Source: a virus
Lineage: Duplodnaviria > Caudoviricetes
Reading direction: 5' to 3' (one strand)
IMG/VR virus record: IMGVR_UViG_3300020235_000102
Coordinates: 1-40,822 of that record
DNA length: 40,822 bases
The first letter of the stretch is position 1; every line of letters begins with the position of its first letter. Made by a program: the position numbers and the translations under genes. Of the stretch, positions 1-40,822 are shown in pieces. The notes beneath the pieces were generated by a model that searched no databases, was not told the origin of the DNA, and saw nothing but the letters and a program-made list of their open reading frames with translations.

Positions 1-141
1 CGTCCAACCTTTGGTTCATTAAATCGCGCTGTTCTAATAATTGCTCTTGTCGCATCTATTCCATCCTGAACCGGGATTTTTGATACAATGTCGAACGAAA
101 AGCCCAACGCAAGCGCGAATTCGACCCTTGTCTTTCCGGTC
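1..141. repeat. 141-bp terminal overlap identical to 40682-40822 (circular assembly overlap)
   Basis: The first 141 nt (cgtccaacct...tttccggtc) recur exactly at the window end. The terL reading frame continues across the junction. Confidence 0.97.
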
Positions 142-2148: not shown

Positions 2149-2183
2149 AGTATACCACATGCCGGGGGGTCCTGTCAAGTATC
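2149..2183 (-). promoter_or_regulatory. sigma70 promoter for the terS/terL/portal operon
   Basis: Minus strand reads GATAC-TTGACA-18 nt ending TGTGG-TATACT. Confidence 0.8.
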
Positions 2184-2535
2184 GGAAGGCGATCGCAGAG
2201 GGAACACGCAAGGCGATTCTTCTTTTTTGGCGCGCATGCGCGTTTTTCCCTATAGGGGAGACAATGGCTGCCGAAGGATCGCGATTCAAAGGGAGCGGAG
2301 AGAGAATAGATCAGCCCGTGCGGAACCCCTATGAGCGCGGAACAGCGGGTCCCATCTTCTGGGGGGTACTACCCGCCCAACGCGCTTCCAATTTTTGGCG
2401 CGCCCGTTCCTTTTTTGCGACGAATTGCCATCCCCCATACCCGGTGCGCGGAGCGGCGCGGGGGAACGCGTCGACCGGGGCGCGACCGGGTGCCCGAATG
2501 CGGCGCGACGCGGGGGCCGAACGCGTTGACGACGC

Positions 2536-2569: not shown

Positions 2570-2641
2570 GGGGTGTCGGTGCGGGACACGGCCCCCGCAA
2601 TCGACGGCACCACGCTCTTTTGGCCGACACAGGAGCACGAC

Positions 2642-3028
2642 ATGGGCAAGACCCAAGAGAACGCGGTCGAGAAGACCGAAGTAGAGGGAACTCCGAAGCG
2701 CAGCAAATCGGAGCAGATGCGGAAGTACAAGGCGGGCTACGAAAGCTATCAGGCCGCGAACGGAAGCATCTCGATGGACAACGGCGATCCGATTGCCTTG
2801 GCCCTCCGGGGAAGCAGCCCGGAAGCGGTGATGGCAGCAGCCGAGAAGCTGAAAGGCCTCGAAGCTGGGACGTTGGCAACCCGGTACATCGACCGGAACC
2901 AAGGCGCTAAGCGCATGAACTCGGGCAACATCATCCGGGGCTGCGTGAAACGGGGCGACAAGACCCAAGCCGAGGTGGTTGCAGCGATCAAGGCCGCCAG
3001 CAAGGACCTGAACACGGTCACCAAGTAG
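2642..3028 (+). CDS. Early protein, paralog of 8133..8636 (RMNxGNxIRG motif)
   Basis: ACACAGGAG RBS precedes ATG 2642, directly downstream of P1. The upstream extension in the ORF track runs through the promoter and is unlikely. Confidence 0.85.
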   Translation: MGKTQENAVEKTEVEGTPKRSKSEQMRKYKAGYESYQAANGSISMDNGDPIALALRGSSPEAVMAAAEKLKGLEAGTLATRYIDRNQGAKRMNSGNIIRGCVKRGDKTQAEVVAAIKAASKDLNTVTK

Positions 3029-6886: not shown

Positions 6887-7678
6887 ATGCCAACAGAAAG
6901 ATTAAACATATCCATGGCCAAATGGACAGGGTTAACAGAACCACCCCCCAAAGAATTGGGTGATTGGGTCGAAAACCTCAGTACCAGAAATATCAACAAA
7001 CTGGCTAAAATTTCCAGTAACATTCACAACACAGTAGATGAAACTGTAAAGTCCATCGCTGCCGGTAAAATAAGACTTGGACAGTTATTACTGGAGGCAC
7101 AGCGAGAATTTGGAAAGTACAGCAGGGACTTTACCAAATGGCGTGTAGAACAAACCCCAATCAAAAGCAAACAACACGCGCTGTATTTGATGCAAATTGC
7201 AACCAAGTTTGCTGACTCACCAAAACTAATCGAAAGTGCAAACTTCAGTGTCCTGCAAGAGTTGGTCTTAGCCGATAACGAGACAATCAAGTGGGTCGAG
7301 TACCACATTGATGCTGGTAATCCACCTACGGTGGCAGAGGTTCGTGAGAAGGTGAAAGAGTCCAAAGGCACCAGCAAGAAGGGTGTTGTCCAAGTTGGTG
7401 CAATGAGCGGGGCGGGGATAAGTCCCCACGCGCAGATTAACCAGATCACGCAAGCTAGTCTATCGTTGCGCATAAGGGCGGTATTGGACCGGAAGATGAA
7501 GGGGATCGATGCAGATTTCTTGATCCTTGGAATGGACCCAGACCCACAAACGCCCTGCCACCCTGAATCACTCAATGCGATCAGGGACCTTTGGCAGGAA
7601 GAGGCACAAAACCCGGATGAACTCGCTGCAATTAGGGATTCATATGACCGGATAACACAGGAGTTTGAAAATTGGTAG
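6887..7678 (+). CDS. DUF3102-like domain protein
   Basis: AAGGAG RBS. IRLGQLLLEAQREFG...FTKW...ALYLMQIA fits the DUF3102 pattern. Confidence 0.65.
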   Translation: MPTERLNISMAKWTGLTEPPPKELGDWVENLSTRNINKLAKISSNIHNTVDETVKSIAAGKIRLGQLLLEAQREFGKYSRDFTKWRVEQTPIKSKQHALYLMQIATKFADSPKLIESANFSVLQELVLADNETIKWVEYHIDAGNPPTVAEVREKVKESKGTSKKGVVQVGAMSGAGISPHAQINQITQASLSLRIRAVLDRKMKGIDADFLILGMDPDPQTPCHPESLNAIRDLWQEEAQNPDELAAIRDSYDRITQEFENW

Positions 7679-8044: not shown

Positions 8045-8085
8045 ATAAACAAGTACTTGACAGGGACCCCTAGGTGTGGTATACT
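8045..8085 (+). promoter_or_regulatory. sigma70 promoter (P4)
   Basis: TAC-TTGACA (8057-8062), 17 nt, TGTGG-TATACT (8080-8085). Confidence 0.85.
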
Positions 8086-8132
8086 GGGGGACCCTGCGGG
8101 GTATCAGAAACCAACGCCAGAAGGAGATTCCC

Positions 8133-8636
8133 ATGGCAAATGCTAAGAAAGAAGAAGCAGTAAAAGAGGTTCGGATTAAACCGAAGCTTGAAAATTACGT
8201 TACAGGCGTAAGCGGTTCCGGCAAGCGGACCAAGAACTGTGGTGATGAAATTGCCTCAGCGCTCGACGGTTTCACGCTGGAAGAAGTCCAAAAAGTCGCA
8301 AGTGAAATGCGCGACATACCTGTTAAGGACCTGAGCGAGAAGTACGCTCACCTTAACATCGGCCAGCAACGGATGAATCTGGGTAACTTGATTCGCGGTG
8401 CCGTTGCCAAGCTGGACAAAGCACACGACAAGGACAAGGCTGTTGTACCGGGCCTCAAGACCTTGAAGGTGCTTTGCGATCCGTTTGCCGGTGCGGTAGC
8501 CAAACGCACCAAAGCAGCAGCGGACGCTAAAGCTGTGCGTGAAGCAAAAGCTGCTAAATCGGCTGAGGCGAAAGCTGCCACTGCCAAGAAGAAAGCAGCC
8601 GACGCCAAGAAAGGCGACACTAAGAAAGCCGCTTAG
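8133..8636 (+). CDS. Putative DNA-binding protein with Lys/Ala-rich histone H1-like tail; paralog of 2642..3028
   Basis: AAGGAG RBS; YAHLNIGQQRMNLGNLIRG core; C-terminal KAAADAKA...KKKAADAKKGDTKKAA. Confidence 0.8.
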   Translation: MANAKKEEAVKEVRIKPKLENYVTGVSGSGKRTKNCGDEIASALDGFTLEEVQKVASEMRDIPVKDLSEKYAHLNIGQQRMNLGNLIRGAVAKLDKAHDKDKAVVPGLKTLKVLCDPFAGAVAKRTKAAADAKAVREAKAAKSAEAKAATAKKKAADAKKGDTKKAA

Positions 8637-8639
8637 GCG

Positions 8640-10067
8640 GTGTTCGAGTACAAAGTCCCTCCAATGGGCCACCAGTTGGTGGCCCTGCGGAAGGCGTACA
8701 GGCTGAAAGAGTACGCCTTGTTCCATGAAATGGGGACCGGTAAGACCTACACGGCAATCAATTTAGCAGCAGCGCGTTATCTAGCGGGTTTGATCGACGC
8801 GCTGGTAGTTATATGCCCAACCCCCATAAAACACATCTGGGAAGCTGAACTCGAAAAGTTCTGCCCAGTGGATTATTCATGTTGGGTATGGGAATCAGGG
8901 GACCAACTCGACCAAAAGTGGTTCAGGGTCAAGAAGGATGAGCTTAAGATTCTGGTGATCGGAGTCGAATCCCTATCAATTAAGAATGGTCGATCCACCT
9001 GTGCGATCGAATACTTCAAGCGCTTTCATCGATTTATGTGCGTTGTCGACGAATCCAGCCGCATCAAGAATTGGAAAGCAGCCCGTACCAAAGCGGTTTG
9101 TGAGGTTGGGGGCTGGGCCGAATTTAGACTCATTTTAACTGGAACACCAGTGACGCAGGGCCTTGAAGATCTGTTCGGCCAATTTCTCTTCCTGAATGCC
9201 AAGATTATCGACTGCAAGAACTACTTTGTCTTTCGCAATAAATACTGTGTGATGGGCGGATTTCAGGGTAAACAGATACTAGGTTACCAGTTTAAAGAGG
9301 ACTTGCTGGGCAAAATAGCCCCCTTCACCGATTACGTGACTAAGGAACAGTGCCTCGATCTACCTGAACAAGTCTATCCAGAACCAATATCAGTTAAACC
9401 CACCGATGAACAAAAACGTGTTATGAAACAAATGAAGACAGAATACGCGATGGAAGATCAAGGTAAAGAAATCACAGTTAGTACGGTTTTAGAGCGGACT
9501 TTACGATATCAGCAGGTCATTGGGGGTACATTCCCCTATGAGGAAGAAGATGGTACATACAAAACGATTCCTATCTCCGGAGGAAATCCTAAACTCGACG
9601 CAACTCTTGAGTACATTGGAGATATACCAGATAACGCGAAGGTTATCATATGGGCTAGGTTTGTACCAGAGATCGAATATCTTATTGAGACCATTAGGAG
9701 AGAGTACGGAGAATCCAGCGTTGTGGACTTCTATGGCGCGACAACTCCTGAACAACGCCCAATCAACAGCGAACGCTTCCAATCAGACCCTACGTGCCGT
9801 TTTATCGTCAGCAATCAGACGGTCGGCGGGTATGGACAGACTTGGACGGCTGCAACTTACGCTGTCTACTATTCCAATACATTTTCCTATGAGGATAGGT
9901 ATCAATCAGAAAGTCGGCCTCATAGAAAAGGGCAACTCAATAGGGTTACGTACCAAGATATTGAAATGGCTGTACCTCAAGACCGCATGATATTGAGGGC
10001 CATCCGGAAAAAGAGAAACCTAGCCCAAGAAGTCGAGGCGACGCTATTAGAGTCTTCGGCATCATAA
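8640..10067 (+). CDS. SNF2-family (SF2) helicase
   Basis: HEMGTGKT (motif I), VVDESS (II), LTGTP (III), GGYGQTW (V), RYQSESRPHRKGQ (VI). Confidence 0.92.
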   Translation: MFEYKVPPMGHQLVALRKAYRLKEYALFHEMGTGKTYTAINLAAARYLAGLIDALVVICPTPIKHIWEAELEKFCPVDYSCWVWESGDQLDQKWFRVKKDELKILVIGVESLSIKNGRSTCAIEYFKRFHRFMCVVDESSRIKNWKAARTKAVCEVGGWAEFRLILTGTPVTQGLEDLFGQFLFLNAKIIDCKNYFVFRNKYCVMGGFQGKQILGYQFKEDLLGKIAPFTDYVTKEQCLDLPEQVYPEPISVKPTDEQKRVMKQMKTEYAMEDQGKEITVSTVLERTLRYQQVIGGTFPYEEEDGTYKTIPISGGNPKLDATLEYIGDIPDNAKVIIWARFVPEIEYLIETIRREYGESSVVDFYGATTPEQRPINSERFQSDPTCRFIVSNQTVGGYGQTWTAATYAVYYSNTFSYEDRYQSESRPHRKGQLNRVTYQDIEMAVPQDRMILRAIRKKRNLAQEVEATLLESSAS

Positions 10068-10104
10068 ACCAATACTTGACAGAGAGGCTCGGATGTGCTA
10101 TACT
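10064..10104 (+). promoter_or_regulatory. sigma70 promoter (P5) for the replication operon
   Basis: ATAC-TTGACA (10076-10081), 17 nt, TGTGC-TATACT (10099-10104). Confidence 0.85.
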
Positions 10105-10149
10105 GGTAGACCGGGTGGGGGCCAGCCCCGCCTAACACAGGAGTAGTAA

Positions 10150-10605
10150 ATGGAAGACGACCGAAAATTGCAAGTAGAAAGCGCCCTAACAGGCGTACCT
10201 TATGACCAACTCGTAGCCGCTATGATTGCGGCCCAGAACCACCATGCTGAAATGAAGTCTGCCACAAGTGAAGCGTGGGACGAAGTTTGTCTAATTGCTC
10301 GGCAAATAATCCCTAATCGGATGGATGCTGATAATATCCAAAATATCACGGTAATCCTACCGGATGGCAGTAAAAGACAGCTCTTGATTATCGATCAGAT
10401 CAGCGTGAAAACGCCACCTGAGAAAAAGCTTGAGCTTTGGGAGTGGCTACGCAATCACAACGCAGCCGAGATAATCACTGAAACGGTGAACTCCAGCACC
10501 TTAGCGGCATACGTACGGCAGCAAATGAGAGAAGGGGACCCCTATCCCAACGACATTTGCGAAGTAAGCGCCTACGCTACCGCTTCCCTTAGAAAGGCGT
10601 CGTAA
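10150..10605 (+). CDS. Conserved phage replication-module protein (gp33-like)
   Basis: ACACAGGAG RBS. The WLRNH...IITETVNSSTLAAYVRQ pattern is typical of small proteins preceding SSB/PolA genes. Confidence 0.75.
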   Translation: MEDDRKLQVESALTGVPYDQLVAAMIAAQNHHAEMKSATSEAWDEVCLIARQIIPNRMDADNIQNITVILPDGSKRQLLIIDQISVKTPPEKKLELWEWLRNHNAAEIITETVNSSTLAAYVRQQMREGDPYPNDICEVSAYATASLRKAS

Positions 10606-10790
10606 ATGACTCCTGTGTGTGGGTTATGATCCCCCCTATCTGCCAATTGGATCACTTAGCGCGACTAGGATTAAGAGTCACTGATTATGTTACGGGACCC
10701 CCTCGCTGGCGTAGCTGGAGTCGCGCTACTTATTTACACGGCAATTGGCTCCGCCGTAAGGGAGCCTAGAACCTAAGTTAGGAGAAAGAA
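10606..10790 (+). ncRNA. Candidate structured RNA or leader
   Basis: 185-nt gap with stems 10657-10666/10719-10728, 10642-10649/10742-10749 and 10747-10752/10761-10766. Confidence 0.4.
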
Positions 10791-10791
10791 A

Positions 10792-11559
10792 GTGGCAAAA
10801 TCCAAAGATGTAACAGTAGCAAGCCAGACAACGTTGGCTGAACGCCCAGACTACATGGGCGATAAAGGAAGGGGATCGGAAGAGGTGACTATTTCCGACA
10901 TCACGATCCCCCGGTTGTCAATGGTGCAGGACTTAAGTCCTCAGCGGAAAAAGAACAACGCTGAGTATATTGAGGGCTGCGAAGAAGGTATGCTGTTCAA
11001 TACGGTGACCAACCAGCTTTATCCAGAGTCGGTCCTGTTTGTCCCGGTGTACTTTCGTCTGGAGTGGTTAGTTTGGAAGCATCGGGATGCCGGTGGTGGT
11101 TTGCAGGGAGTGTGTGCGACGCAAGACGAGGCAGTAGCCTTAGTCGCTGATCATCCACTCGCAGGGCAAATGACCGACAAGAAAGAGCCGGTACTCGAAG
11201 TTCAAGACACGGCCCAGCATTTTGGGCTGCTGTTGGACCCTGACTCACCCGCCGAAGCACCACACGCTACTGAGATTGTTGTATCGATGTCGAAGTCGCA
11301 GTTGAAGCCTAGTCGGCAACTCAACAGCCAAATCCGCATTGCCGGGGGCGACCGTTTTGAACGGTACTACCGGTTAAGTGCGGTGCAGGTTGACGGGGCC
11401 AGAGGCGAGTATTACAACTGGAAAGTCGAGCAACTTGGATTCGTTAGTGAGGCAATCTTTGCGCAAGCAGAGGCCTTATACGAGTCCGTTGTCTCCGGCA
11501 AACGCGACGTAGAACGCGACGACACAACTTCCCAAGAAGAGGAAGATAGCAACATGTAA
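10792..11559 (+). CDS. Putative single-stranded DNA-binding protein
   Basis: DITIPRLSMVQDLSPQ...YIEG...GMLFNTVT pattern, an acidic C-terminal tail, and position upstream of the polymerase. Confidence 0.7.
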   Translation: MAKSKDVTVASQTTLAERPDYMGDKGRGSEEVTISDITIPRLSMVQDLSPQRKKNNAEYIEGCEEGMLFNTVTNQLYPESVLFVPVYFRLEWLVWKHRDAGGGLQGVCATQDEAVALVADHPLAGQMTDKKEPVLEVQDTAQHFGLLLDPDSPAEAPHATEIVVSMSKSQLKPSRQLNSQIRIAGGDRFERYYRLSAVQVDGARGEYYNWKVEQLGFVSEAIFAQAEALYESVVSGKRDVERDDTTSQEEEDSNM

Positions 11560-11566
11560 GTAATTT

Positions 11567-11593
11567 GGGGTCCCGAGGTCGGGACCCCTCTTT
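11567..11593 (+). terminator. Rho-independent terminator
   Basis: GGGGTCCCG-AGGT-CGGGACCCC followed by TCTTT. Confidence 0.65.
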
Positions 11594-11614
11594 CATCGCC
11601 ACAGGAGTAAGGTT

Positions 11615-11881
11615 ATGGCCTTCGAGCATAGAGACAACACCGGGTCCATCTTCAAAAATCAGTACAAAACCAAAGATAAGCACCCGGATCACCAAGGTGG
11701 TTGCAAGATCATCTGCGAAAAGTGTGGTCACGCAACCGAGCTACGCATTTCTGCGTGGGTCAATGACCTCAAAGATAATGCGGGTAAATACTTCGGCCTA
11801 GTGTTTAGTAAGCACCAAGCCAAGGAGCAATCCACCCCGGTACGCACAGAAGAAGATTTCGACGACGATATCCCCTTCTAA
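11615..11881 (+). CDS. Small ssDNA-binding-type protein (DUF736-like) with CxxC and an SSB-like DDDIPF tail
   Basis: GSIFKN...KHPDHQG...ISAW...GKYFGL; CEKC; ends EEDFDDDIPF. Confidence 0.75.
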   Translation: MAFEHRDNTGSIFKNQYKTKDKHPDHQGGCKIICEKCGHATELRISAWVNDLKDNAGKYFGLVFSKHQAKEQSTPVRTEEDFDDDIPF

Positions 11882-13725
11882 TGTACCCGGATTTGTCCCG
11901 CTATCCGTACTTTGCGTACGATACCGAGACTACCGGGTTACGCTATCCAGTAGATAAGGCCTTTGCCTGTTCTATTGCCGTGCCCGGTGGAGATTCGTGG
12001 TACTTCGATTTCCGGCGACAGCCAAAAGCCATCGAGTGGCTGAATGATTCTTTTGAACGATTGTCCGAAAGTGCCCACATCATTTGCCACAACGCGCCAT
12101 TTGACGTGTCGATGTCGGCTGTCGCCGGGATCAATATCCCCTTATGCCTACTTGACGACACGGTGGTAAGAGCCTGTCTAATCAATGAACACGAAGCCTC
12201 CATATTCCCATGGAATAGGCACAAAAAGCCCGGGGGCTACAGTTTAGACTACCTTTGCCGCAAGTACATAGGCAAGGGTAAGAAGGAAATTGATGTCACA
12301 AACATAGCCGACCTCCCCTATGAAGAGGCTGCTGAATACGGGGCATGGGACGCTGTATTGGCTCTTGAACTTTGGGAGTGGCAGGAAAAGCAAATTAAGG
12401 ACCAAAATCTCTACCGGATCACGGAGCTTGAACGGCGTTGTATGCCAATTATCATTGAGTCCCAAATGGCCGGACTCAGAGTGGACCTTGACGAAACTGA
12501 ACGGGCGATGGAGGCAATGACCCCTCATATCGCTGATTTGCAACACCAAATGAATGACATAGCGGGGTGGGACTTCAACGTTAATTCCGGCCCCCAGATG
12601 ATTAAGCTGTTTGACCCGACCAAGACCAATTCGGGCTGGTGGGTTGGGCGCAATAGGATTGGAACAACGGACAAGGGTGCACCCTCGTTCAAGAAGGAGT
12701 ATCTTGAAGAACTTGCAGAGTTTGACCCACGTGCCAGAATGGTCACCGACATTAGGTCCGCTCTTAAGACCCGGGATACTTTCCTCGCTAAACATATACT
12801 TGAACATGCGATCGGGGATCGAGTTTACCCGACTATCAATCAAACTGTCCGGGAAACAGGTGGTACGAAATGGGGGCGATTATCCTATGTAGACCCGGCC
12901 ATGCAACAAATCCCATCCCGTGACAAGACTACAGCGGCTATCGTTAAGCCTTGCTTTTTACCAGATGTGGGGCAATGTTGGCTAGACTATGACTTGGCTA
13001 GCTTCGAGGTTAGAGTCTTTGCGGCACTCGTTGGGATGTATAATGACCATCTAGTTAAGTTATATCAGAAGAATCCACGACTAGATTTCCATCAAATGGT
13101 AGCGGACTTGACCGGGTTGAAGCGCAATGCGGAGTACGGTGGGGAGCCTAACGCTAAACAATTAAATCTCAGCATGATCTTTTCCCAAGGTGCTGGGGCA
13201 ACCGCCCAGAAGATGGGCATGGAGACAACAGATGCTGAATTCACAGATCAATGGGGAGACAAGATTAAATATCAACGTGCCGGGAACGATGCTTACCGAA
13301 TTATCGATAAATATCACTCTAAAGTACGTGGAGTCCGAAAGTTGGCTGAGACAGCTAGAAGAGTGGCTGAAACACGAGGGTATCTCCGAACTAAGTTTGG
13401 ACGCCACATTCGTTTCCCGAAACGGTACAAAAGTTACAAAGCAAGTGGCATACTCATTCAAGCCACCTCCGCCGACATAAATAAGGAGAATTGGTACCTC
13501 ATTGACGGGGCTTTGAATGGACACGGGCGGATAGTTCTCAACACGCACGATAGTTATAGCATGTCAGTTGATATAGACAAGTTGGAAGAGTTAAAAAAGG
13601 ACATAGTAGGGGCAATTGAGCGAGAATTCTTAGGTGTACCGCTCCTACTTGATTTGAATGGGGTTGGGTCGAACTGGTGGTCGGCCTTAAAGAATGAGGG
13701 GATAGAAGGTGCTGTTACCGATTAA
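11881..13725 (+). CDS. dpoZ: Family A DNA polymerase with 3'-5' exonuclease, DpoZ-like
   Basis: Exo motifs YDTETTG, HNAPFD and YGAWD. Pol motifs GRLSYVDPAMQQIP, A = DLASFEVR, B = NAKQLNLSMIF, C = THDS. Linked to purZ. The PolA call is firm; the dpoZ name is inferred. Confidence 0.85.
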   Translation: MYPDLSRYPYFAYDTETTGLRYPVDKAFACSIAVPGGDSWYFDFRRQPKAIEWLNDSFERLSESAHIICHNAPFDVSMSAVAGINIPLCLLDDTVVRACLINEHEASIFPWNRHKKPGGYSLDYLCRKYIGKGKKEIDVTNIADLPYEEAAEYGAWDAVLALELWEWQEKQIKDQNLYRITELERRCMPIIIESQMAGLRVDLDETERAMEAMTPHIADLQHQMNDIAGWDFNVNSGPQMIKLFDPTKTNSGWWVGRNRIGTTDKGAPSFKKEYLEELAEFDPRARMVTDIRSALKTRDTFLAKHILEHAIGDRVYPTINQTVRETGGTKWGRLSYVDPAMQQIPSRDKTTAAIVKPCFLPDVGQCWLDYDLASFEVRVFAALVGMYNDHLVKLYQKNPRLDFHQMVADLTGLKRNAEYGGEPNAKQLNLSMIFSQGAGATAQKMGMETTDAEFTDQWGDKIKYQRAGNDAYRIIDKYHSKVRGVRKLAETARRVAETRGYLRTKFGRHIRFPKRYKSYKASGILIQATSADINKENWYLIDGALNGHGRIVLNTHDSYSMSVDIDKLEELKKDIVGAIEREFLGVPLLLDLNGVGSNWWSALKNEGIEGAVTD

Positions 13726-15886
13726 CGATGTCCGGGATATTGACCGGATCAAAGATTTCAATACTAAAATACATCAAGCTGCAAGACTGTACGCGGACAA
13801 TGGAATACCAGTCGTACCCTTGCGACCGAATAGCAAAATCCTGCCCGAACGAAAAACGGGCATCAATTACTTTTCAAGCTCTACCAAACCAAAGACCATG
13901 GATAAATGGTTCGGCCCCGATGGGCGATACCAAGGTTGGAATATAGGTGTGGTTTGCGGGGCTGAGGTCTTTGTAGTCGACCTCGACTTACATGGCCGGG
14001 AGAATGGACTTGAAAATTGGGATGAATTTAGGGGTGATAATAATATCAATTGCCCTACCGCCCAGACACCCACGGGGGGTCGACACTTATACATGCGGTG
14101 GCGGGACAACCTTACGAGTAGCTCCGGGAAGCTCGCCCGGGGTGTCGATACCCGGGGAGGCGACGGGAAGCCCCGCTCGCATGTAGTCTGTTGGCCCTCG
14201 GTGACAGAGGATGGGTCCTATAGCTGGCTGACCGGGGGCGACATACCCGATACGCCAGAGTGGATATCGGACGCGATGGGGATACCTTGGTCCGCTAAAC
14301 CGGGCCGTGGCAATGAGGAGGTCGGGCAGGACGACGAAGAATTTAAATATGAGCTACATCAAGTTGCCGCCATGCTGGACCACATTGACACCAACGTTTT
14401 ATCGTACGAGGAATGGTTATTTGTGGGACAGGCGATTAATAGTCAGCACCCTAATAAAGATGGACTCCAACTTTGGGACGCGTGGTCGGCCAATGGCGAC
14501 CGTTACGTACAGGGGGAGTGCCAAAAACGCTGGCCCGGATTTAATCCCTCTGGCCCCATACGAATTGGGTCACTTGTTTATTTCGCTAAACAGGGTGGAT
14601 ACGACCCAAGCAGCGACCCTGCGCGCTCTGGGGACTTTGAAGACTTAGTGGATCGGATGAACGAAGATAATGCTGTCCTGCTAACCGGGGGTAAAGTACG
14701 TATTATCCACCGAACCAAGGATGGTGGAATTCACATATTAGGGACGGGTGACTTCAACACCCTGATGTTCAACAAAATAGTGACCATACCCAATAAAAAA
14801 AGTCGAACCACCGAAGCTGACATTTGGATGGGCCACCCAATGCGCCGGGAGTGCATAATGGGTATGGGCTTCTTCCCGGATGAACCACTGTGGCATGAAG
14901 GTTATGTTAACATGTGGCGAGGCTGGGGAGTTGACCCGGTGGAGGGGAACTGGGATATGTTCAAACTCCATATTCACAAAATCCTGTGCGATGGAAATGA
15001 GGAGTTGTCCAATTTCGTCTATGATTGGATGGCCGACATGATACAAGACCCGATGGACCCCAAGGGCACCGCAATCGTGATGCACGGCAAGGAGGGAACT
15101 GGTAAGGGGACCTTCTGCGAGATACTGGGTAAGATGGTGGGACGGAATCACTATGCACACGTGACAAATGAGCGCCACCTAACGGGCAACTTCAACTACC
15201 TATTTATGGAGTCACTATTCGTATTCGCAGACGAGGTAATCTACGGAGGCTCAAGATCAACGGCTGGTATACTCAAGGCGATGGTTACTGAAAAGCAGTT
15301 GGTGTGTGAACGTAAGGGTCTTGACCCCTTTATGTACGATAATCGCATCCGACTTGCTGTAGCCTCCAATGAGGATTGGTTCATACCCGCAGGGCCGGAG
15401 TCAAGACGGTGGCTCGTGCTGGAACTCAATGACGAGAAAGCAAATGATCGCAATTACTTCAATAAACTCTACACTCAAATGTACGAAGAGGGCGGGTTAG
15501 AGGCAATGATGTACGATTTACAGACCCGCAAGATTAAGAGTAATTTGACCAAGGCGATAGTAACTGAAGCGCTTAAAGCTCAGCGGGACATTTACCGATC
15601 CACTGGCGATTCAGTTGATATGTGGATGGACGAGTGTGTTGGTAAAGCCGATCTTGGAGTCCCGGACGAGGGACAAGGAGGTTGGCCAGATGAAGCCGAT
15701 AGAATGACCCTATTCGAAGCCTACAACGCTTGGGCCAAAGATGGGAAAATAAGAACTAAGGGCACAGCCCACTTTTATAGGAAGCTAGAAGGATATGGAT
15801 TTGTTAACTTTAGACCAAGAACCGATGGGGTCAGGAAACAGCGGTACAAAATCCCTCCCCATGCCAAATTCACAACCGAAAGTTGA
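13709..15886 (+). CDS. Primase-helicase: Prim-Pol (AEP) domain, PriCT-2 and P-loop NTPase
   Basis: NIGVVCG, VVDLDLH, TPTGGRHLY (Prim-Pol); YEEWLFVGQAI...WDAWS (PriCT-2); GKEGTGKGT and VFADE (NTPase). Confidence 0.9.
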   Translation: MLLPINDVRDIDRIKDFNTKIHQAARLYADNGIPVVPLRPNSKILPERKTGINYFSSSTKPKTMDKWFGPDGRYQGWNIGVVCGAEVFVVDLDLHGRENGLENWDEFRGDNNINCPTAQTPTGGRHLYMRWRDNLTSSSGKLARGVDTRGGDGKPRSHVVCWPSVTEDGSYSWLTGGDIPDTPEWISDAMGIPWSAKPGRGNEEVGQDDEEFKYELHQVAAMLDHIDTNVLSYEEWLFVGQAINSQHPNKDGLQLWDAWSANGDRYVQGECQKRWPGFNPSGPIRIGSLVYFAKQGGYDPSSDPARSGDFEDLVDRMNEDNAVLLTGGKVRIIHRTKDGGIHILGTGDFNTLMFNKIVTIPNKKSRTTEADIWMGHPMRRECIMGMGFFPDEPLWHEGYVNMWRGWGVDPVEGNWDMFKLHIHKILCDGNEELSNFVYDWMADMIQDPMDPKGTAIVMHGKEGTGKGTFCEILGKMVGRNHYAHVTNERHLTGNFNYLFMESLFVFADEVIYGGSRSTAGILKAMVTEKQLVCERKGLDPFMYDNRIRLAVASNEDWFIPAGPESRRWLVLELNDEKANDRNYFNKLYTQMYEEGGLEAMMYDLQTRKIKSNLTKAIVTEALKAQRDIYRSTGDSVDMWMDECVGKADLGVPDEGQGGWPDEADRMTLFEAYNAWAKDGKIRTKGTAHFYRKLEGYGFVNFRPRTDGVRKQRYKIPPHAKFTTES

Positions 15887-16844
15887 TCTAGTACTTGATC
15901 TTCAATTCGGTAGTACGGGCAAGGGGCTGATCTGCGGCTACTTGGGTGAATCGGGCGAGCATGATACTTGCATGACGGCTAACATGCCGAATGCTGGGCA
16001 TACTTACATCAATAAGAAGGGGACAAAGTACATATTTAAGGTGCTACCAAGTTCGGCGGTTTGCCCTAGTATCAAAACGGTGATGATCGGCCCGGGCGCG
16101 GTATTTGACTTAGACCGGCTAAAACAGGAAATGGTATTTCTTAGAGCGGACCAAACTCTTCGAATTCACCCTGCTGCAATGGTGCTGATGCCAGAACATC
16201 GGAAAAAAGAAATGGCGACATTAGGCCACATCGCCAGTACGTGCCAAGGTAGCGCAGCTGCCATGGTGGACAAGATATGGAGGAGTAACCCATCCATCGC
16301 CAAAGACGTGCTTAGAGACACCAAATTTGAACAGTACCTTTGTCCCAACGCTGAATGGCAGATGCGATTAGCAATGTCAGACGGTATACTTGCAGAGGGG
16401 TCGCAGGGCTATAGTCTCGGGATTAATACTCACTTCTATCCCTATACTACCAGTCGTGATTGTGGACCTGCGGCCTTTCTCTCTAACATGGGCATACCAC
16501 TTGGCATGCTCAGTCGAATAATCGGCACCTGTCGTACCCTGCCAATCCGTGTTGGGGGCAACAGTGGCGATTGTTATCCGGATCAGGAGGAGTTAGATTG
16601 GGACGAATTAGGTCTCGAACCTGAATTGACGACTGTCACCAACCGGGTACGCCGCATCTTTACTTACAGTAAGTTGCAAATCGAGGAGGCCATTTGGTGG
16701 TGTGACCCTGATTTGGTCTTCCTCAACTTCGCCAATTACGTCGAAGCGGACTACGTAAAGAATATCGTAGCTCATATTGACGCTTTCAGTACGGTTAGGT
16801 GGGTCGGATTTGGCCCAGCCTATGACGACATAGGAGTGATATAA
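15861..16844 (+). CDS. purZ: PurZ, 2-amino-deoxyadenylosuccinate synthetase (PurA paralog)
   Basis: DLQFGSTGKG (Ser in place of the Asp of PurA GDEGKG), NAGHT, EGSQG, YPYTTSRD, TTVTNRVRRIF, and NFANY in place of the PurA TKLD motif. The start is uncertain (15795, 15825 or 15861). Confidence 0.93.
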   Translation: MPNSQPKVDLVLDLQFGSTGKGLICGYLGESGEHDTCMTANMPNAGHTYINKKGTKYIFKVLPSSAVCPSIKTVMIGPGAVFDLDRLKQEMVFLRADQTLRIHPAAMVLMPEHRKKEMATLGHIASTCQGSAAAMVDKIWRSNPSIAKDVLRDTKFEQYLCPNAEWQMRLAMSDGILAEGSQGYSLGINTHFYPYTTSRDCGPAAFLSNMGIPLGMLSRIIGTCRTLPIRVGGNSGDCYPDQEELDWDELGLEPELTTVTNRVRRIFTYSKLQIEEAIWWCDPDLVFLNFANYVEADYVKNIVAHIDAFSTVRWVGFGPAYDDIGVI

Positions 16845-17173
16845 TGGAGGATGTACCAATAGGTAATAGCCTCGCTGACATTAGGGTAATTTCTAAGGCC
16901 ATCAAAAAATGGGCTGATGAAGTTATGCCCCATCGTTTGCCAGCAGACGCAATCAAGAAACTCTCAATGGAGGAAGTGCCAGAGTTATGGAGAGCTTTAA
17001 AGGACTATGGGACAGTAGACCCCGGTGAAATAGCCGATGTCCTGATCCTTGCCCTTGACATCTGTGAATTGTCCAAAATTGACCCACTAGAGGCGATACA
17101 TGATAAGATGATCATCAATATGGGTCGAACATGGAAGTTTGAACACGGGGTATTACAACACGTGGAGGAATAG
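16844..17173 (+). CDS. mazZ: MazG-like nucleotide pyrophosphohydrolase (MazZ, (d)GTPase)
   Basis: KLSMEEVPEL...DPGEIADVLILALD...AIHDKMIINMGRTW...GVLQH closely resembles cyanophage S-2L MazZ as I recall it. Coupled to purZ by TAATG. Confidence 0.85.
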   Translation: MEDVPIGNSLADIRVISKAIKKWADEVMPHRLPADAIKKLSMEEVPELWRALKDYGTVDPGEIADVLILALDICELSKIDPLEAIHDKMIINMGRTWKFEHGVLQHVEE

Positions 17174-17175
17174 AT

Positions 17176-17397
17176 ATGCAAACAAAAACAATGAGCATGA
17201 TTGAGATGTTCACCGGCAAAGTGGCAGGATATATAATATTTGTAGCGGCCCAAGTAGTAATACTACCGTTATACTATGATGTTCAAGTACCAATAACCGA
17301 TAATATGCAAATAGGGCTGATGTTCTCGGCTATAGCAACGTTTAAAAGCTACGGAGTCCGACGATTCTTTAATTGGTGGCAATGGGGAAGAACATGA
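17176..17397 (+). CDS. Small two-TM membrane protein
   Basis: GGAGG RBS; MQTKTMSMIE...SYGVRRFFN pattern with two hydrophobic segments. Confidence 0.75.
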   Translation: MQTKTMSMIEMFTGKVAGYIIFVAAQVVILPLYYDVQVPITDNMQIGLMFSAIATFKSYGVRRFFNWWQWGRT

Positions 17398-17900
17398 GCA
17401 GTAGGGGCGAAACAAAAATGTGGAAGTACCTTCGTCCTAAGTTGAAAGCTTATGGACATTTTACGAGGATAGAAAGCCATGAAACAGCTGTCGGAACTCC
17501 TGATGTCGACTATTGCATCAAAGGATATTGTAACCATCTTGAACTCAAATTTACAGAAAGTGAGAAGAGAGGATTTCGACTCCGCCCTTCGCAAGCTGGA
17601 TGGTTCAGACGGAGAGTTAAAGCTGGAGGTCAGCCTTGGCTCTTGGCACAAAGTTGTATTCGCGACAAGCGGGGATACGTGCTGGTTCCGGGTACGAACG
17701 TACCGGCGCTTGCCCGTTCAACTAAAGTTACCGATTGGTTAATGGCAGGGATAATGGTATGGGAAGACAAAGTAGACGTGGAAGAACTAGTAATGTTCTT
17801 AAGTACCTACCTAATAGTAGATTCACAAGAAGGTGGAAATGGGACCGGGGAACAAGGGTCCTCTGGATTGATATTGCCATCAGTAAAGCTAGTGACTTAG
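17394..17900 (+). CDS. PD-(D/E)XK nuclease (VRR-Nuc/resolvase-like)
   Basis: ETKMW...TRIES...GTPDV...LELK...LRPSQAGW...AGG; ATGA overlap. Confidence 0.85.
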   Translation: MSSRGETKMWKYLRPKLKAYGHFTRIESHETAVGTPDVDYCIKGYCNHLELKFTESEKRGFRLRPSQAGWFRRRVKAGGQPWLLAQSCIRDKRGYVLVPGTNVPALARSTKVTDWLMAGIMVWEDKVDVEELVMFLSTYLIVDSQEGGNGTGEQGSSGLILPSVKLVT

Positions 17901-18592: not shown

Positions 18593-18693
18593 TAGTCAAA
18601 CAGAACTAGGGCCAAAATCGCCCACGATAGGATGTAATGAATCCCGCCCCGATATTTGGCCTCAAAGGCCTTAATTGCTAGTAAATACTCCAT
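18592..18693 (-). CDS. 33-aa membrane peptide (MEYLLAIKAFEAKYRGGIHYILSWAILALVLFD)
   Basis: TAATG overlaps on both sides; hydrophobic C-terminus. Confidence 0.6.
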   Translation of the reverse strand: MEYLLAIKAFEAKYRGGIHYILSWAILALVLFD

Positions 18694-19139
18694 TAGTCGT
18701 TATCCTCGATTGTGATCCAAATTTCCTCTAGGGCAAGTGCCCCAATAATGGCCTCATACAAGCGCGTATACGCTGCAACTGATGTGGTTACCATACCTCG
18801 TTCAGTAACATTTTGTATTTGACCATCCCCTACGAGAATGCAACCCTCTGAGTGGTCGTCATTATTGCCCGTATGAATGTACACATATTCGAACTCCGGT
18901 ACATCTTGAAGGTGTAGCATTCCCATATGGAAATCAAACCTTTTACCGTAACGTTTGGTCATTCCACCTACATTACGGAGTTTAATTTGATATCGACCCA
19001 CTGGGATTCGAGTTTCCCCCGGGATTTTAGGTTCATTAAATTGATCTTCCAATGAATAGCAGAAGAATTTACCGTTTACACGGAGCAGACCAAGAGAAGA
19101 TTCATCCCCGCCAGAAAATCGAGTGACCTTAATTTCCAT
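18693..19139 (-). CDS. DUF5675-family protein, putative endolysin
   Basis: FCYSLED...KIPGETRIPVGRY...DVPEFEYVYIHTGNNDDHSEGCILVG; adjacent to the holin. Confidence 0.85.
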   Translation of the reverse strand: MEIKVTRFSGGDESSLGLLRVNGKFFCYSLEDQFNEPKIPGETRIPVGRYQIKLRNVGGMTKRYGKRFDFHMGMLHLQDVPEFEYVYIHTGNNDDHSEGCILVGDGQIQNVTERGMVTTSVAAYTRLYEAIIGALALEEIWITIEDND

Positions 19140-40409: not shown

Positions 40410-40822
40410 TATGATTCCTCAGTGTCCCATCATCGTTAAACATCCACGGATACATATCCATTGCGCTTTGCTTTTGACTTTGCTGCTTGCCTCTTATTGC
40501 ACTTCTTACACCAAACTGAGCCGAGGTGACTTTAATGCCTCCAATGTAATCGCGCCACCCAACCGAGAGATAGCGCATAGCATCTGCGGGGTGACTCGCC
40601 CAATCGTGAAGGGGTTTGTCTCTGAACATTTGGAGTCGATCGTCATACTCACGCCGATAACTATGCAATCCGTCAAGAAGGCGTCCAACCTTTGGTTCAT
40701 TAAATCGCGCTGTTCTAATAATTGCTCTTGTCGCATCTATTCCATCCTGAACCGGGATTTTTGATACAATGTCGAACGAAAAGCCCAACGCAAGCGCGAA
40801 TTCGACCCTTGTCTTTCCGGTC
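40399..40822 (-). CDS. terL: Terminase large subunit, C-terminal part
   Basis: DGIDATR...PLHDWASHPADAMRY nuclease end; joins 1..1139. Confidence 0.95.
   Translation of the reverse strand, partial: TGKTRVEFALALGFSFDIVSKIPVQDGIDATRAIIRTARFNEPKVGRLLDGLHSYRREYDDRLQMFRDKPLHDWASHPADAMRYLSVGWRDYIGGIKVTSAQFGVRSAIRGKQQSQKQSAMDMYPWMFNDDGTLRNHNGR
40682..40822. repeat. Duplicate of bases 1-141
   Basis: Exact match. Confidence 0.97.

What the first reader, a model, noticed from the sequence alone, without database searches (positions are those of the whole stretch)
11881..17173. 2-Aminoadenine (Z-base) genome pathway: DpoZ-like polymerase, Prim-Pol, PurZ, MazZ
Seen: a PurA-fold protein with GSTGKG rather than GDEGKG and NFANY rather than TKLD, coupled to a MazG-type enzyme in the same operon as a PolA. 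Established: these substitutions distinguish PurZ (dGMP + Asp, ATP/dATP donor) from PurA, MazZ supplies dGMP from dGTP, and phages S-2L and phiVC8 use this route to replace adenine with 2-aminoadenine. Inference: the virion DNA of this phage contains Z:T pairs, and it is a divergent phiVC8-like podovirus.
Basis: partly seen in the sequence, partly recalled or inferred. Interest (0 to 1): 0.85.

Follow-up and report, generated by a model that had tools for sequence, protein, structure and literature searches.

The report
Z-DNA phage missing its adenine remover
This complete phage genome carries the known genes for building DNA with 2-aminoadenine (Z) in place of adenine, but the gene that normally destroys the adenine building block (datZ) is replaced, here and in several relatives, by a small predicted membrane protein, so its DNA is likely only partly substituted.

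Summary
The genes are real. PurZ and DpoZ pass NCBI's curated cut-offs, and MazZ is the S-2L type (MazZ-1), not phiVC8's. The Prim-Pol protein is the family's usual primase-helicase. The window is a complete circular phiVC8/ZP6-like podophage genome.

The datZ slot (mazZ, slot, nuclease) holds a 73-aa DUF7220 protein, while a sister phage about 83% identical has an intact datZ there. An independent study's contig bridges both junctions.

In this clade, 7 of 19 informative clusters carry DUF7220 and 12 carry datZ, never both. Outside it, 75 of 75 carry datZ. The cassette moves laterally. All clade polymerases lack exonuclease helix E1. purZ stays under purifying selection, and palindrome use looks Z-like.

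Best reading: Z-rich but incompletely substituted DNA. Z itself is not shown. The scan has noted the full cassette often, and one datZ-less jumbo phage, but not this swap. Verdict: new variant of a known kind.

The parts
11881..13725 (+). DpoZ, phiVC8-like clade; exonuclease insert shortened by about 17 aa (helix E1 lost)
   Evidence: NF038380 705 bits, cut-off 500; 7pbk 625 bits vs Klenow 104; insertions 1-3 and L430/F434/G523/S558 = phiVC8 L455/F459/G548/S583; insert 38 aa vs 54-57 aa
13709..15886 (+). Primase-helicase (Prim-Pol + PriCT_2 + DUF5906); orthologue of phiVC8 p28, not Z-specific
   Evidence: Pfam; 42% to phiVC8 and ZP6
15861..16844 (+). PurZ, ATP/dATP type (ORF open from 15795; likely start 15861)
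   Evidence: NF038379 312.6 bits, cut-off 300; 27 of 30 mapped pocket positions identical to phiVC8 PurZ; 6fm1 360 bits
16844..17173 (+). MazZ-1 (S-2L / DUF550 type) nucleotide pyrophosphohydrolase
   Evidence: 7ody E 1.6e-12; 16 of 21 S-2L pocket and metal residues identical, including I68/D72 = I56/D60; 39% to S-2L MazZ and 39% to the SH-Ab 15497 DUF550 domain
17176..17397 (+). DUF7220 small hydrophobic protein occupying the datZ slot
   Evidence: PF23858 69 bits; one predicted membrane helix, 3 acidic residues, no His; sister L008 has datZ between the same flanks, with breakpoints near 17160 and 17404
17394..17900 (+). Conserved nuclease-like gene (phrog_2165; annotated 'nuclease' in ZP6 and 'DNA helicase' in phiVC8) that follows datZ in relatives; right flank of the slot
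   Evidence: ATGA overlap with the DUF7220 stop
8640..11881 (+). Upstream replication genes (SNF2 helicase, Pam3 gp33- and gp34-like proteins, SSB), same order as phiVC8/ZP6
40682..40822 (.). 141-bp repeat of window 1-141: circular assembly, so the genome is complete and absence of datZ is meaningful
   Evidence: 478-codon open terminase frame across the join; 100% complete, direct terminal repeats

Best explanation
This complete podophage encodes PurZ, MazZ-1 and DpoZ but no DatZ, whose slot holds DUF7220, so it likely makes dZTP and likely packages Z-rich DNA that still contains some adenine. Inferred mechanism: MazZ turns dGTP into dGMP; PurZ adds aspartate using ATP or dATP; host enzymes finish dZTP; DpoZ prefers dZTP, but host dATP is not destroyed, so some A is incorporated. 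Shown: datZ and DUF7220 alternate in one slot across this clade, and the cassette moves between lineages. Inferred: DUF7220 is a mobile accessory gene that enters by recombination in the flanking mazZ and nuclease genes and does not replace DatZ chemically.
For: Intact PurZ, DpoZ and MazZ signatures. No DatZ, HD, DUF5664, dUTPase or NDT gene in the complete genome, with positive controls ringing. Sister L008 keeps datZ with W20/I22 and the HD residues. Both junctions are bridged by a contig from a second study and present in a separate assembly, L088. purZ dN/dS is 0.116-0.117 in two DUF-DUF sister pairs vs 0.12-0.17 in four datZ-datZ pairs; 10 of 10 checked purZ variants in the laid runs are synonymous. 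A/T-containing 6-mer palindromes are barely avoided (0.84) while GC-only ones are (0.49), as in 8 of 8 purZ genomes. Published: phiVC8 DpoZ still inserts A at physiological dATP, and DatZ is invoked to explain total absence of A (PMC8599892); incomplete clusters gave lower substitution in E. coli (PMC8342488).
Against: No chemical evidence of Z at all. The palindrome signal is a long-term average, cannot separate DUF7220 from datZ genomes, rests on 6 hand-picked controls, and T7 shows the same ratio (0.41). datZ loss occurs only in the clade with the shortened polymerase, which could mean full compensation rather than leakiness. The window's purZ branch has more amino-acid changes than its sister's (12.5 vs 7, with equal synonymous change), although primase and nuclease show the same excess. 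That DUF7220 always sits in exactly this slot is not explained by hitch-hiking alone.
Confidence: 0.5

Rival explanations
1. Substitution is still complete because DatZ is redundant in this clade: the short-exonuclease DpoZ is more Z-selective, MazZ-1 also hydrolyses dATP, PurZ consumes dATP, or the host's dATP pool is low.
For: All 8 datZ-less clusters fall in the one clade where 19 of 19 DpoZ rows have the shortened insert. This MazZ is as close to the SH-Ab 15497 DUF550 domain as to S-2L MazZ (39% each), and the SH-Ab fusion hydrolyses dATP (PMC12884076). S-2L PurZ uses dATP (PMC8342488). E2 and exonuclease mutants of phiVC8 DpoZ keep their dZTP preference (PMC8599892).
Against: 12 of 19 clade clusters keep datZ under purifying selection (dN/dS 0.07-0.17), so it is still useful. 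MazZ does not sort by slot state and keeps the guanine determinants I68/D72. The SH-Ab protein also has a DUF5664 domain, which hydrolyses dATP on its own in phage Wayne and is absent here.
Confidence: 0.3
2. The datZ-less phages make essentially ordinary A-DNA, and the remaining Z genes are on their way out or wait to regain datZ by recombination.
For: Slightly more amino-acid change on the window's purZ branch. mazZ dN/dS is 0.08-0.12 in DUF pairs vs 0.04-0.11 in datZ pairs. At least one datZ also moved laterally (L012/L014 datZ pS 0.34 vs purZ 0.72).
Against: purZ, mazZ and dpoZ are full-length in every datZ-less locus whose contig spans them. The state recurs in 8 clusters and in several samples. 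Palindrome use is Z-like in 3 of 3 DUF7220 genomes.
Confidence: 0.11
3. DUF7220 is a non-homologous stand-in for DatZ, lowering dATP by a membrane route (export, or inhibition of a host enzyme).
For: Strict mutual exclusivity in one slot (0 of 22 clusters with both), translational coupling to both neighbours, and purifying selection on DUF7220 (dN/dS 0.07-0.25).
Against: 73 aa with no catalytic-looking residues. Homologues occur in 61 phage records, of which the 50 listed are mostly from genera not in the purZ list, and 8 inspected contexts share no neighbour. 10 of 12 viral DUF7220 loci have no Z gene within the DNA held.
Confidence: 0.07
4. The datZ-less arrangement is an assembly chimera.
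For: The window is a metagenomic assembly, and the laid runs hold several related phages.
Against: Contig X2 16466-17507 bridges both junctions with no gaps. L088 and six other clusters show the same order.
Confidence: 0.02

Closest known systems
Vibrio phage phiVC8 (Enhodamvirus) and Alteromonas phage ZP6 (Mareflavirus): dpoZ-primase-purZ-mazZ2-datZ-nuclease
   Same: Podovirus genome plan and gene order; PurZ 50-52%, DpoZ 49-50%, primase 42%, capsid 45-50% identity; PurZ and DpoZ signature residues.
   Different: No datZ (DUF7220 instead); MazZ-1 rather than MazZ-2; DpoZ lacks helix E1; a separate PurZ clade with 100/100 support.
Cyanophage S-2L Z-cluster (purZ-mazZ-datZ; PMC8342488)
   Same: MazZ-1 type with conserved metal and guanine residues; PurZ pocket.
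   Different: S-2L has a non-selective PrimPol and depends on DatZ; this phage has DpoZ and no DatZ.
Stenotrophomonas phage BUCT555
   Same: Same order including a MazZ-1/DUF550 gene after purZ.
   Different: Keeps datZ and the long exonuclease insert.
PurZ0 phages Wayne and Ghobes (DutZ/DmtZ/DUF5664; PMC12884076)
   Same: Z genomes without DatZ; shorter E1/E2 region reported for Wayne-like DpoZ (PMC8599892).
   Different: They have dedicated dATP-destroying substitutes and a different PurZ and DpoZ clade; none of those substitutes is found here.

Membership tests
PurZ | Ser in place of the PurA catalytic Asp13 | tested here: met
   S40 aligns with E. coli D14 (Met-counted), phiVC8 S14, S-2L S23
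PurZ | ATP-type pocket N-F-x-N/Q instead of TKLD, and T262-type loop | tested here: met
   N311/F312/N314, T279-T282, G340/P341
PurZ | Scores above the curated PurZ model and below PurA; groups with phage PurZ | tested here: met
   NF038379 312.6 vs cut-off 300; TIGR00184 86.7 vs 395.6; PDB ranks phiVC8 PurZ 360, S-2L 220, 7vf6 108, E. coli PurA 32 bits. No tree with PurA or PurZ0 rows was built; 7vf6 = PurZ0 is recalled.
PurZ | Converts dGMP + Asp + (d)ATP to dSMP, not IMP | not testable with these tools
   needs enzyme assay
phiVC8-like DpoZ | Insertions 1-3 and L455/F459/G548 (PMC8599892) | tested here: met
   All present; insertion 1 reads RETGG rather than GEDGG; NF038380 705 vs cut-off 500
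phiVC8-like DpoZ | Extended exonuclease helices E1/E2 with R161 and M165 | tested here: not met
   About 17 aa missing, removing E1. R161 aligns to K135 in the five-row alignment but to a gap in the 108-row alignment; M165 = V139. The exonuclease catalytic residues D14/E16/D75 are intact.
phiVC8-like DpoZ | Prefers dZTP over dATP | not testable with these tools
   needs primer-extension assay
MazZ-1 | Metal ligands E35/E38/E50/D53, R83, guanine determinants I56/D60 | tested here: met
   E44/E47/E62/D65, R95, I68/D72
MazZ-1 | (d)GTP-specific activity | not testable with these tools
   sequence equally close to the SH-Ab 15497 DUF550 domain
Z-cluster (datZ-mazZ-purZ triad) | datZ or another dATP-destroying enzyme present | tested here: not met
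   tblastn with 5 DatZ, best E 0.019; 6-sequence HMM, best E 5; HD_3, YfbR-like, DUF5664, dUTPase and NDT all 0 in G000. An enzyme of an unknown family cannot be excluded.
Fully substituted Z-genome phage | dZ replaces all dA in virion DNA | not testable with these tools
   only an indirect palindrome signal
phiVC8/ZP6-like podoviruses | T7-like portal, tail tubular proteins, shared capsid and gene order | tested here: met
   identities of 45-53% point to a separate genus (no formal taxonomy run)

The most novel reading that the evidence does not exclude
A widespread uncultured phage clade toggles its DNA chemistry by swapping one gene cassette: datZ carriers package fully Z DNA and DUF7220 carriers package naturally mixed A/Z DNA (or full Z DNA from a polymerase that needs no dATP depletion), with both alleles kept by host defences.
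Probability: 0.3. Interest if true: 0.75.

Novelty: new variant of a known kind. Interest (0 to 1): 0.5.

Why it matters
How adenine is excluded from Z genomes (polymerase selectivity or dATP depletion) is unsettled: S-2L relies on DatZ, and phiVC8 DpoZ alone leaks A in vitro. This clade supplies near-matched natural pairs, about 83% identical across the operon, with and without datZ, so the question becomes directly testable. Either outcome is useful: natural partial-Z genomes, or a DpoZ/MazZ set that works without a dATPase, which matters for engineering Z-DNA in cells, where the full cluster is toxic (PMC8342488). It also warns that purZ plus dpoZ does not by itself prove a fully substituted genome.

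Tried and rejected
Hidden datZ elsewhere or across the circular join: none found. A compensating gene shared only by DUF7220 phages: of 56 window genes tested against 16 genomes or loci, only DUF7220 itself was confined to and shared by them; many of those loci are partial. The 263-aa clade-wide protein 6887-7678 as a hidden hydrolase: the single-sequence model was uninformative (pLDDT 42) and the Atlas points to DUF3102-like clusters. MazZ co-evolving with slot state: not seen (6 changes, shuffled mean 6.1). A fixed enzyme partner of DUF7220 in other phages: none in 8 contexts; the Atlas gave only DUF7220 clusters. 4-mer palindromes gave no clear signal. Host: the genome scan returned 14 loci, none above 48% identity, so no host assignment; only 3 of the 14 were examined (all datZ). 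Two extra close DpoZ contigs end before purZ. The whole records of L097, L098, L093 and L105 are not held, so datZ elsewhere in them was not checked; G001 and G002 lack it but are only 73% and 81% complete.
Full report
WHAT THE WINDOW IS. The 40,822 bases are one circular phage genome. The first and last 141 bases are identical, the terminase large subunit reads as one 478-codon open frame across the join, and the record is classed as 100% complete with direct terminal repeats. Portal, capsid, tail tubular and internal virion genes make it a podovirus. Its best cultured matches are phiVC8-like Vibrio phages and Alteromonas phage ZP6, with the same gene order and 42-53% identity in the core proteins. 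Near-identical DNA occurs in one subsurface and four marine metagenome runs from two studies, one of which may be the source. The host is unknown.

PurZ passes the curated PurZ model (312.6 vs cut-off 300) and fails purA (86.7 vs 395.6). It has Ser40 at the PurA catalytic Asp and N311/F312/N314 at TKLD. Of 30 pocket positions taken from PMC8342488 (Results read), 27 are identical to phiVC8 PurZ. The polymerase passes the DpoZ model (705 vs 500) and has the three insertions and L455/F459/G548 equivalents described in PMC8599892 (Results parts 1-2 of 3 and Discussion read; alignment). MazZ matches solved S-2L MazZ with 16 of 21 pocket and metal residues; three of the five differences are at positions the paper calls unique to S-2L. 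It is MazZ-1 and has no hit to the MazZ-2 of phiVC8 or ZP6. The Prim-Pol protein has the same domains as phiVC8's primase and is ordinary replication machinery for this family.

In phiVC8, ZP6, BUCT555 and 69E27.1, datZ lies between mazZ and a conserved nuclease-like gene; S-2L also has it directly after mazZ. Here that slot holds a 73-aa DUF7220 gene. Five DatZ proteins find nothing in the circularised genome (best E 0.019), nor does a six-sequence profile (best E 5). HD_3, YfbR-like, DUF5664, dUTPase and NDT models give no match in G000, while controls ring (the first DUF5664 search had no ringing control, and was repeated with SH-Ab 15497). A sister phage (L007/L008, PurZ 90% identical) aligns at 83.6% up to window 17160 and 82.0% from 17404, and carries a 166-aa DatZ in between, with the W20/I22 specificity pair and HD ligands of S-2L DatZ (residues from passages of PMC8065100). 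The datZ-less order is not an artefact: a contig from a second study spans 16466-17507 without gaps, and a separate assembly, L088, has the same order.

HOW GENERAL IT IS. I classified 166 purZ loci: the window, 5 cultured phages, the best 80 of 187 viral hits and the best 80 of 246 metagenome hits, so the sample favours closer relatives. They collapse to 108 clusters at 95%. The window's clade (PurZ at least 60% identical, support 100/100) has 22 clusters: 12 datZ, 7 DUF7220, 3 truncated, none with both. One truncated locus, L100, ends in the DUF7220 N-terminus, making an eighth. Of 86 clusters outside, 75 have datZ and none has DUF7220; 11 were set aside (8 end before the slot; L033, L086 and L113 are other genome types with no datZ hit in the DNA held). 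Fisher's p is 5e-6 for 7 of 19 vs 0 of 75, ignoring relatedness. On the PurZ tree the slot state needs 6 changes, at least 4 forced by strong branches, and is no more clustered than shuffled labels; a quick DpoZ tree gives 5 and 4. The DUF7220 genes of the window, L013, L102 and L108 group together (100/99), although purZ pairs L108 with L011 and L102 with L098 (100/100 each). Synonymous distance is lower in DUF7220 than in purZ in 20 of 21 pairs, against 27 of 55 for datZ, and one datZ pair also looks transferred. So the cassette moves laterally. datZ is the likely ancestral state from the outgroups, but gains and losses cannot be ordered from these trees.

A SECOND CLADE TRAIT. The exonuclease insert that holds helices E1/E2 is 38 aa in 19 of 19 in-clade polymerase rows (duplicates included, both slot states) and 54-57 aa in 88 of 89 outside rows; L158 is the exception. 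Helix E1 is lost and the catalytic acidic residues remain. In phiVC8, E2 and exonuclease mutants keep their dZTP preference, so this does not predict loss of Z selectivity. Its link to datZ loss is a correlation within one clade.

IS THE PATHWAY STILL USED? purZ dN/dS is 0.116-0.117 in two DUF-DUF sister pairs, 0.12-0.17 in four datZ-datZ pairs and 0.109 for the window vs L008; dpoZ is 0.05-0.08. Ten of ten checked purZ variants in the laid runs are synonymous. Against this, the window's branch has 12.5 amino-acid-changing differences in purZ vs 7 for L008, but primase and nuclease show the same excess. GC-only 6-mer palindromes occur 34 times vs 69 expected, and A/T-containing ones 482 vs 577. 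All 8 purZ genomes (3 DUF7220, 5 datZ) show this pattern: ratio 0.40-0.70, A/T-containing 0.81-0.88. Of 6 hand-picked controls with no annotated purZ, five have ratios of 0.93-1.52 (two on about 3 expected counts) and T7 has 0.41; five avoid A/T-containing sites more strongly (0.52-0.68). This fits a lineage whose adenines have long been masked from restriction (PMC12944874 passages: 53% of 147 enzymes blocked or partly blocked), but it cannot date the loss or give the Z fraction.

WHAT DUF7220 IS. It is hydrophobic, with one predicted membrane helix, three acidic residues and no histidine. It occurs in 61 cultured phage records with no fixed neighbour in 8 inspected contexts, and 10 of 12 viral loci found with a clade alignment have no Z gene nearby. 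A full-text search found no paper naming it. It is most simply a mobile accessory gene and not a nucleotide hydrolase, but its strict use of this slot is unexplained.

MECHANISM. Shown: gene content, residues, the swap and its recurrence. From established biochemistry of homologues: dGTP to dGMP (MazZ), to dSMP (PurZ), to dZTP (host enzymes), with preferential use by DpoZ. Inferred: with dATP left intact the DNA is Z-rich but mixed (0.5), because phiVC8 DpoZ inserts A at physiological dATP and the authors invoke DatZ for its total absence, and incomplete clusters lower substitution in E. coli. Rivals: full substitution by compensation (0.3), ordinary DNA with a fading pathway (0.11), DUF7220 as a functional stand-in (0.07), artefact (0.02).

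NOVELTY. The pathway is well known, and the scan has noted complete cassettes on other DNA many times. Papers say that 'most' PurZ phages encode DatZ (PMC8515928 passage; PMC12884076 parts 1, 3, 4, 5 of 7 read), and PurZ0 phages lack it but have DutZ/DmtZ. I could not see the presence/absence figure of PMC12884076 (its supplement text has no 'DatZ'), the supplements of bioRxiv 10.1101/2025.10.22.683976 (abstract and Results part 2 of 3 read), or the 2021 Science and 2023 PurZ0 papers (recalled only); any of these may list datZ-less PurZ phages. Five literature searches showed no listing that describes a datZ/DUF7220 swap or the short-insert clade. PMC11354583 (passages) was not relevant, and PMC13128860 was seen as abstract and outline. 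Verdict: new variant of a known kind, interest 0.5.

Noticed in passing
window 2536, 3916, 5780, 8052, 10071 (+) and 2161-2184 (-): Repeated near-consensus sigma70-type promoters with an extended -10 element, and a recurring strong Shine-Dalgarno motif: host-polymerase-driven early and replication transcription.
   Followed up: no
window 16847-17342 (runs X2, X5): Contigs of a co-occurring relative rejoin the window inside the 3' end of DUF7220 after 503 different letters, suggesting another datZ-less variant with a diverged mazZ in the same samples.
   Followed up: no
L026, L028, L035, L039, L047, L050, L052, L071, L081, L114, L129, L139, L141, L145, L160: Out-of-clade purZ loci where datZ directly follows purZ with no MazZ-1 or MazZ-2 hit: the mirror-image loss.
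   Followed up: no
L033, L086, L113: purZ homologues with no dpoZ, mazZ, datZ or nuclease hit in the DNA held; L033 lies on a 120-kb contig.
   Followed up: no
L158:564-2423: An out-of-clade DpoZ with the same short exonuclease insert, apparently an independent loss of helix E1; it keeps datZ.
   Followed up: partly
window 18693-19139 vs L008:13153-13608: The lysis-enzyme slot is also swapped between the sister phages: DUF5675 in the window, peptidase M15 in L008.
   Followed up: no
L013, L093, L096, just after the slot gene: An extra small gene with the same start sits between the slot and the nuclease in both DUF7220 and datZ carriers.
   Followed up: no
window 2639-3028 and 8076-8636: Two paralogous phrog_8941 proteins of unknown function, also found in phiVC8 and ZP6.
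   Followed up: no
clade DatZ proteins (L009-L017, L095, L096, L107): S-2L DatZ K116, a phosphate-binding residue, is Q or H in 9 of 11 clade DatZ proteins aligned.
   Followed up: no
L022:11221-11813: datZ appears as two pieces in this record of a VP2-sized genome (possible frameshift or sequencing error).
   Followed up: no
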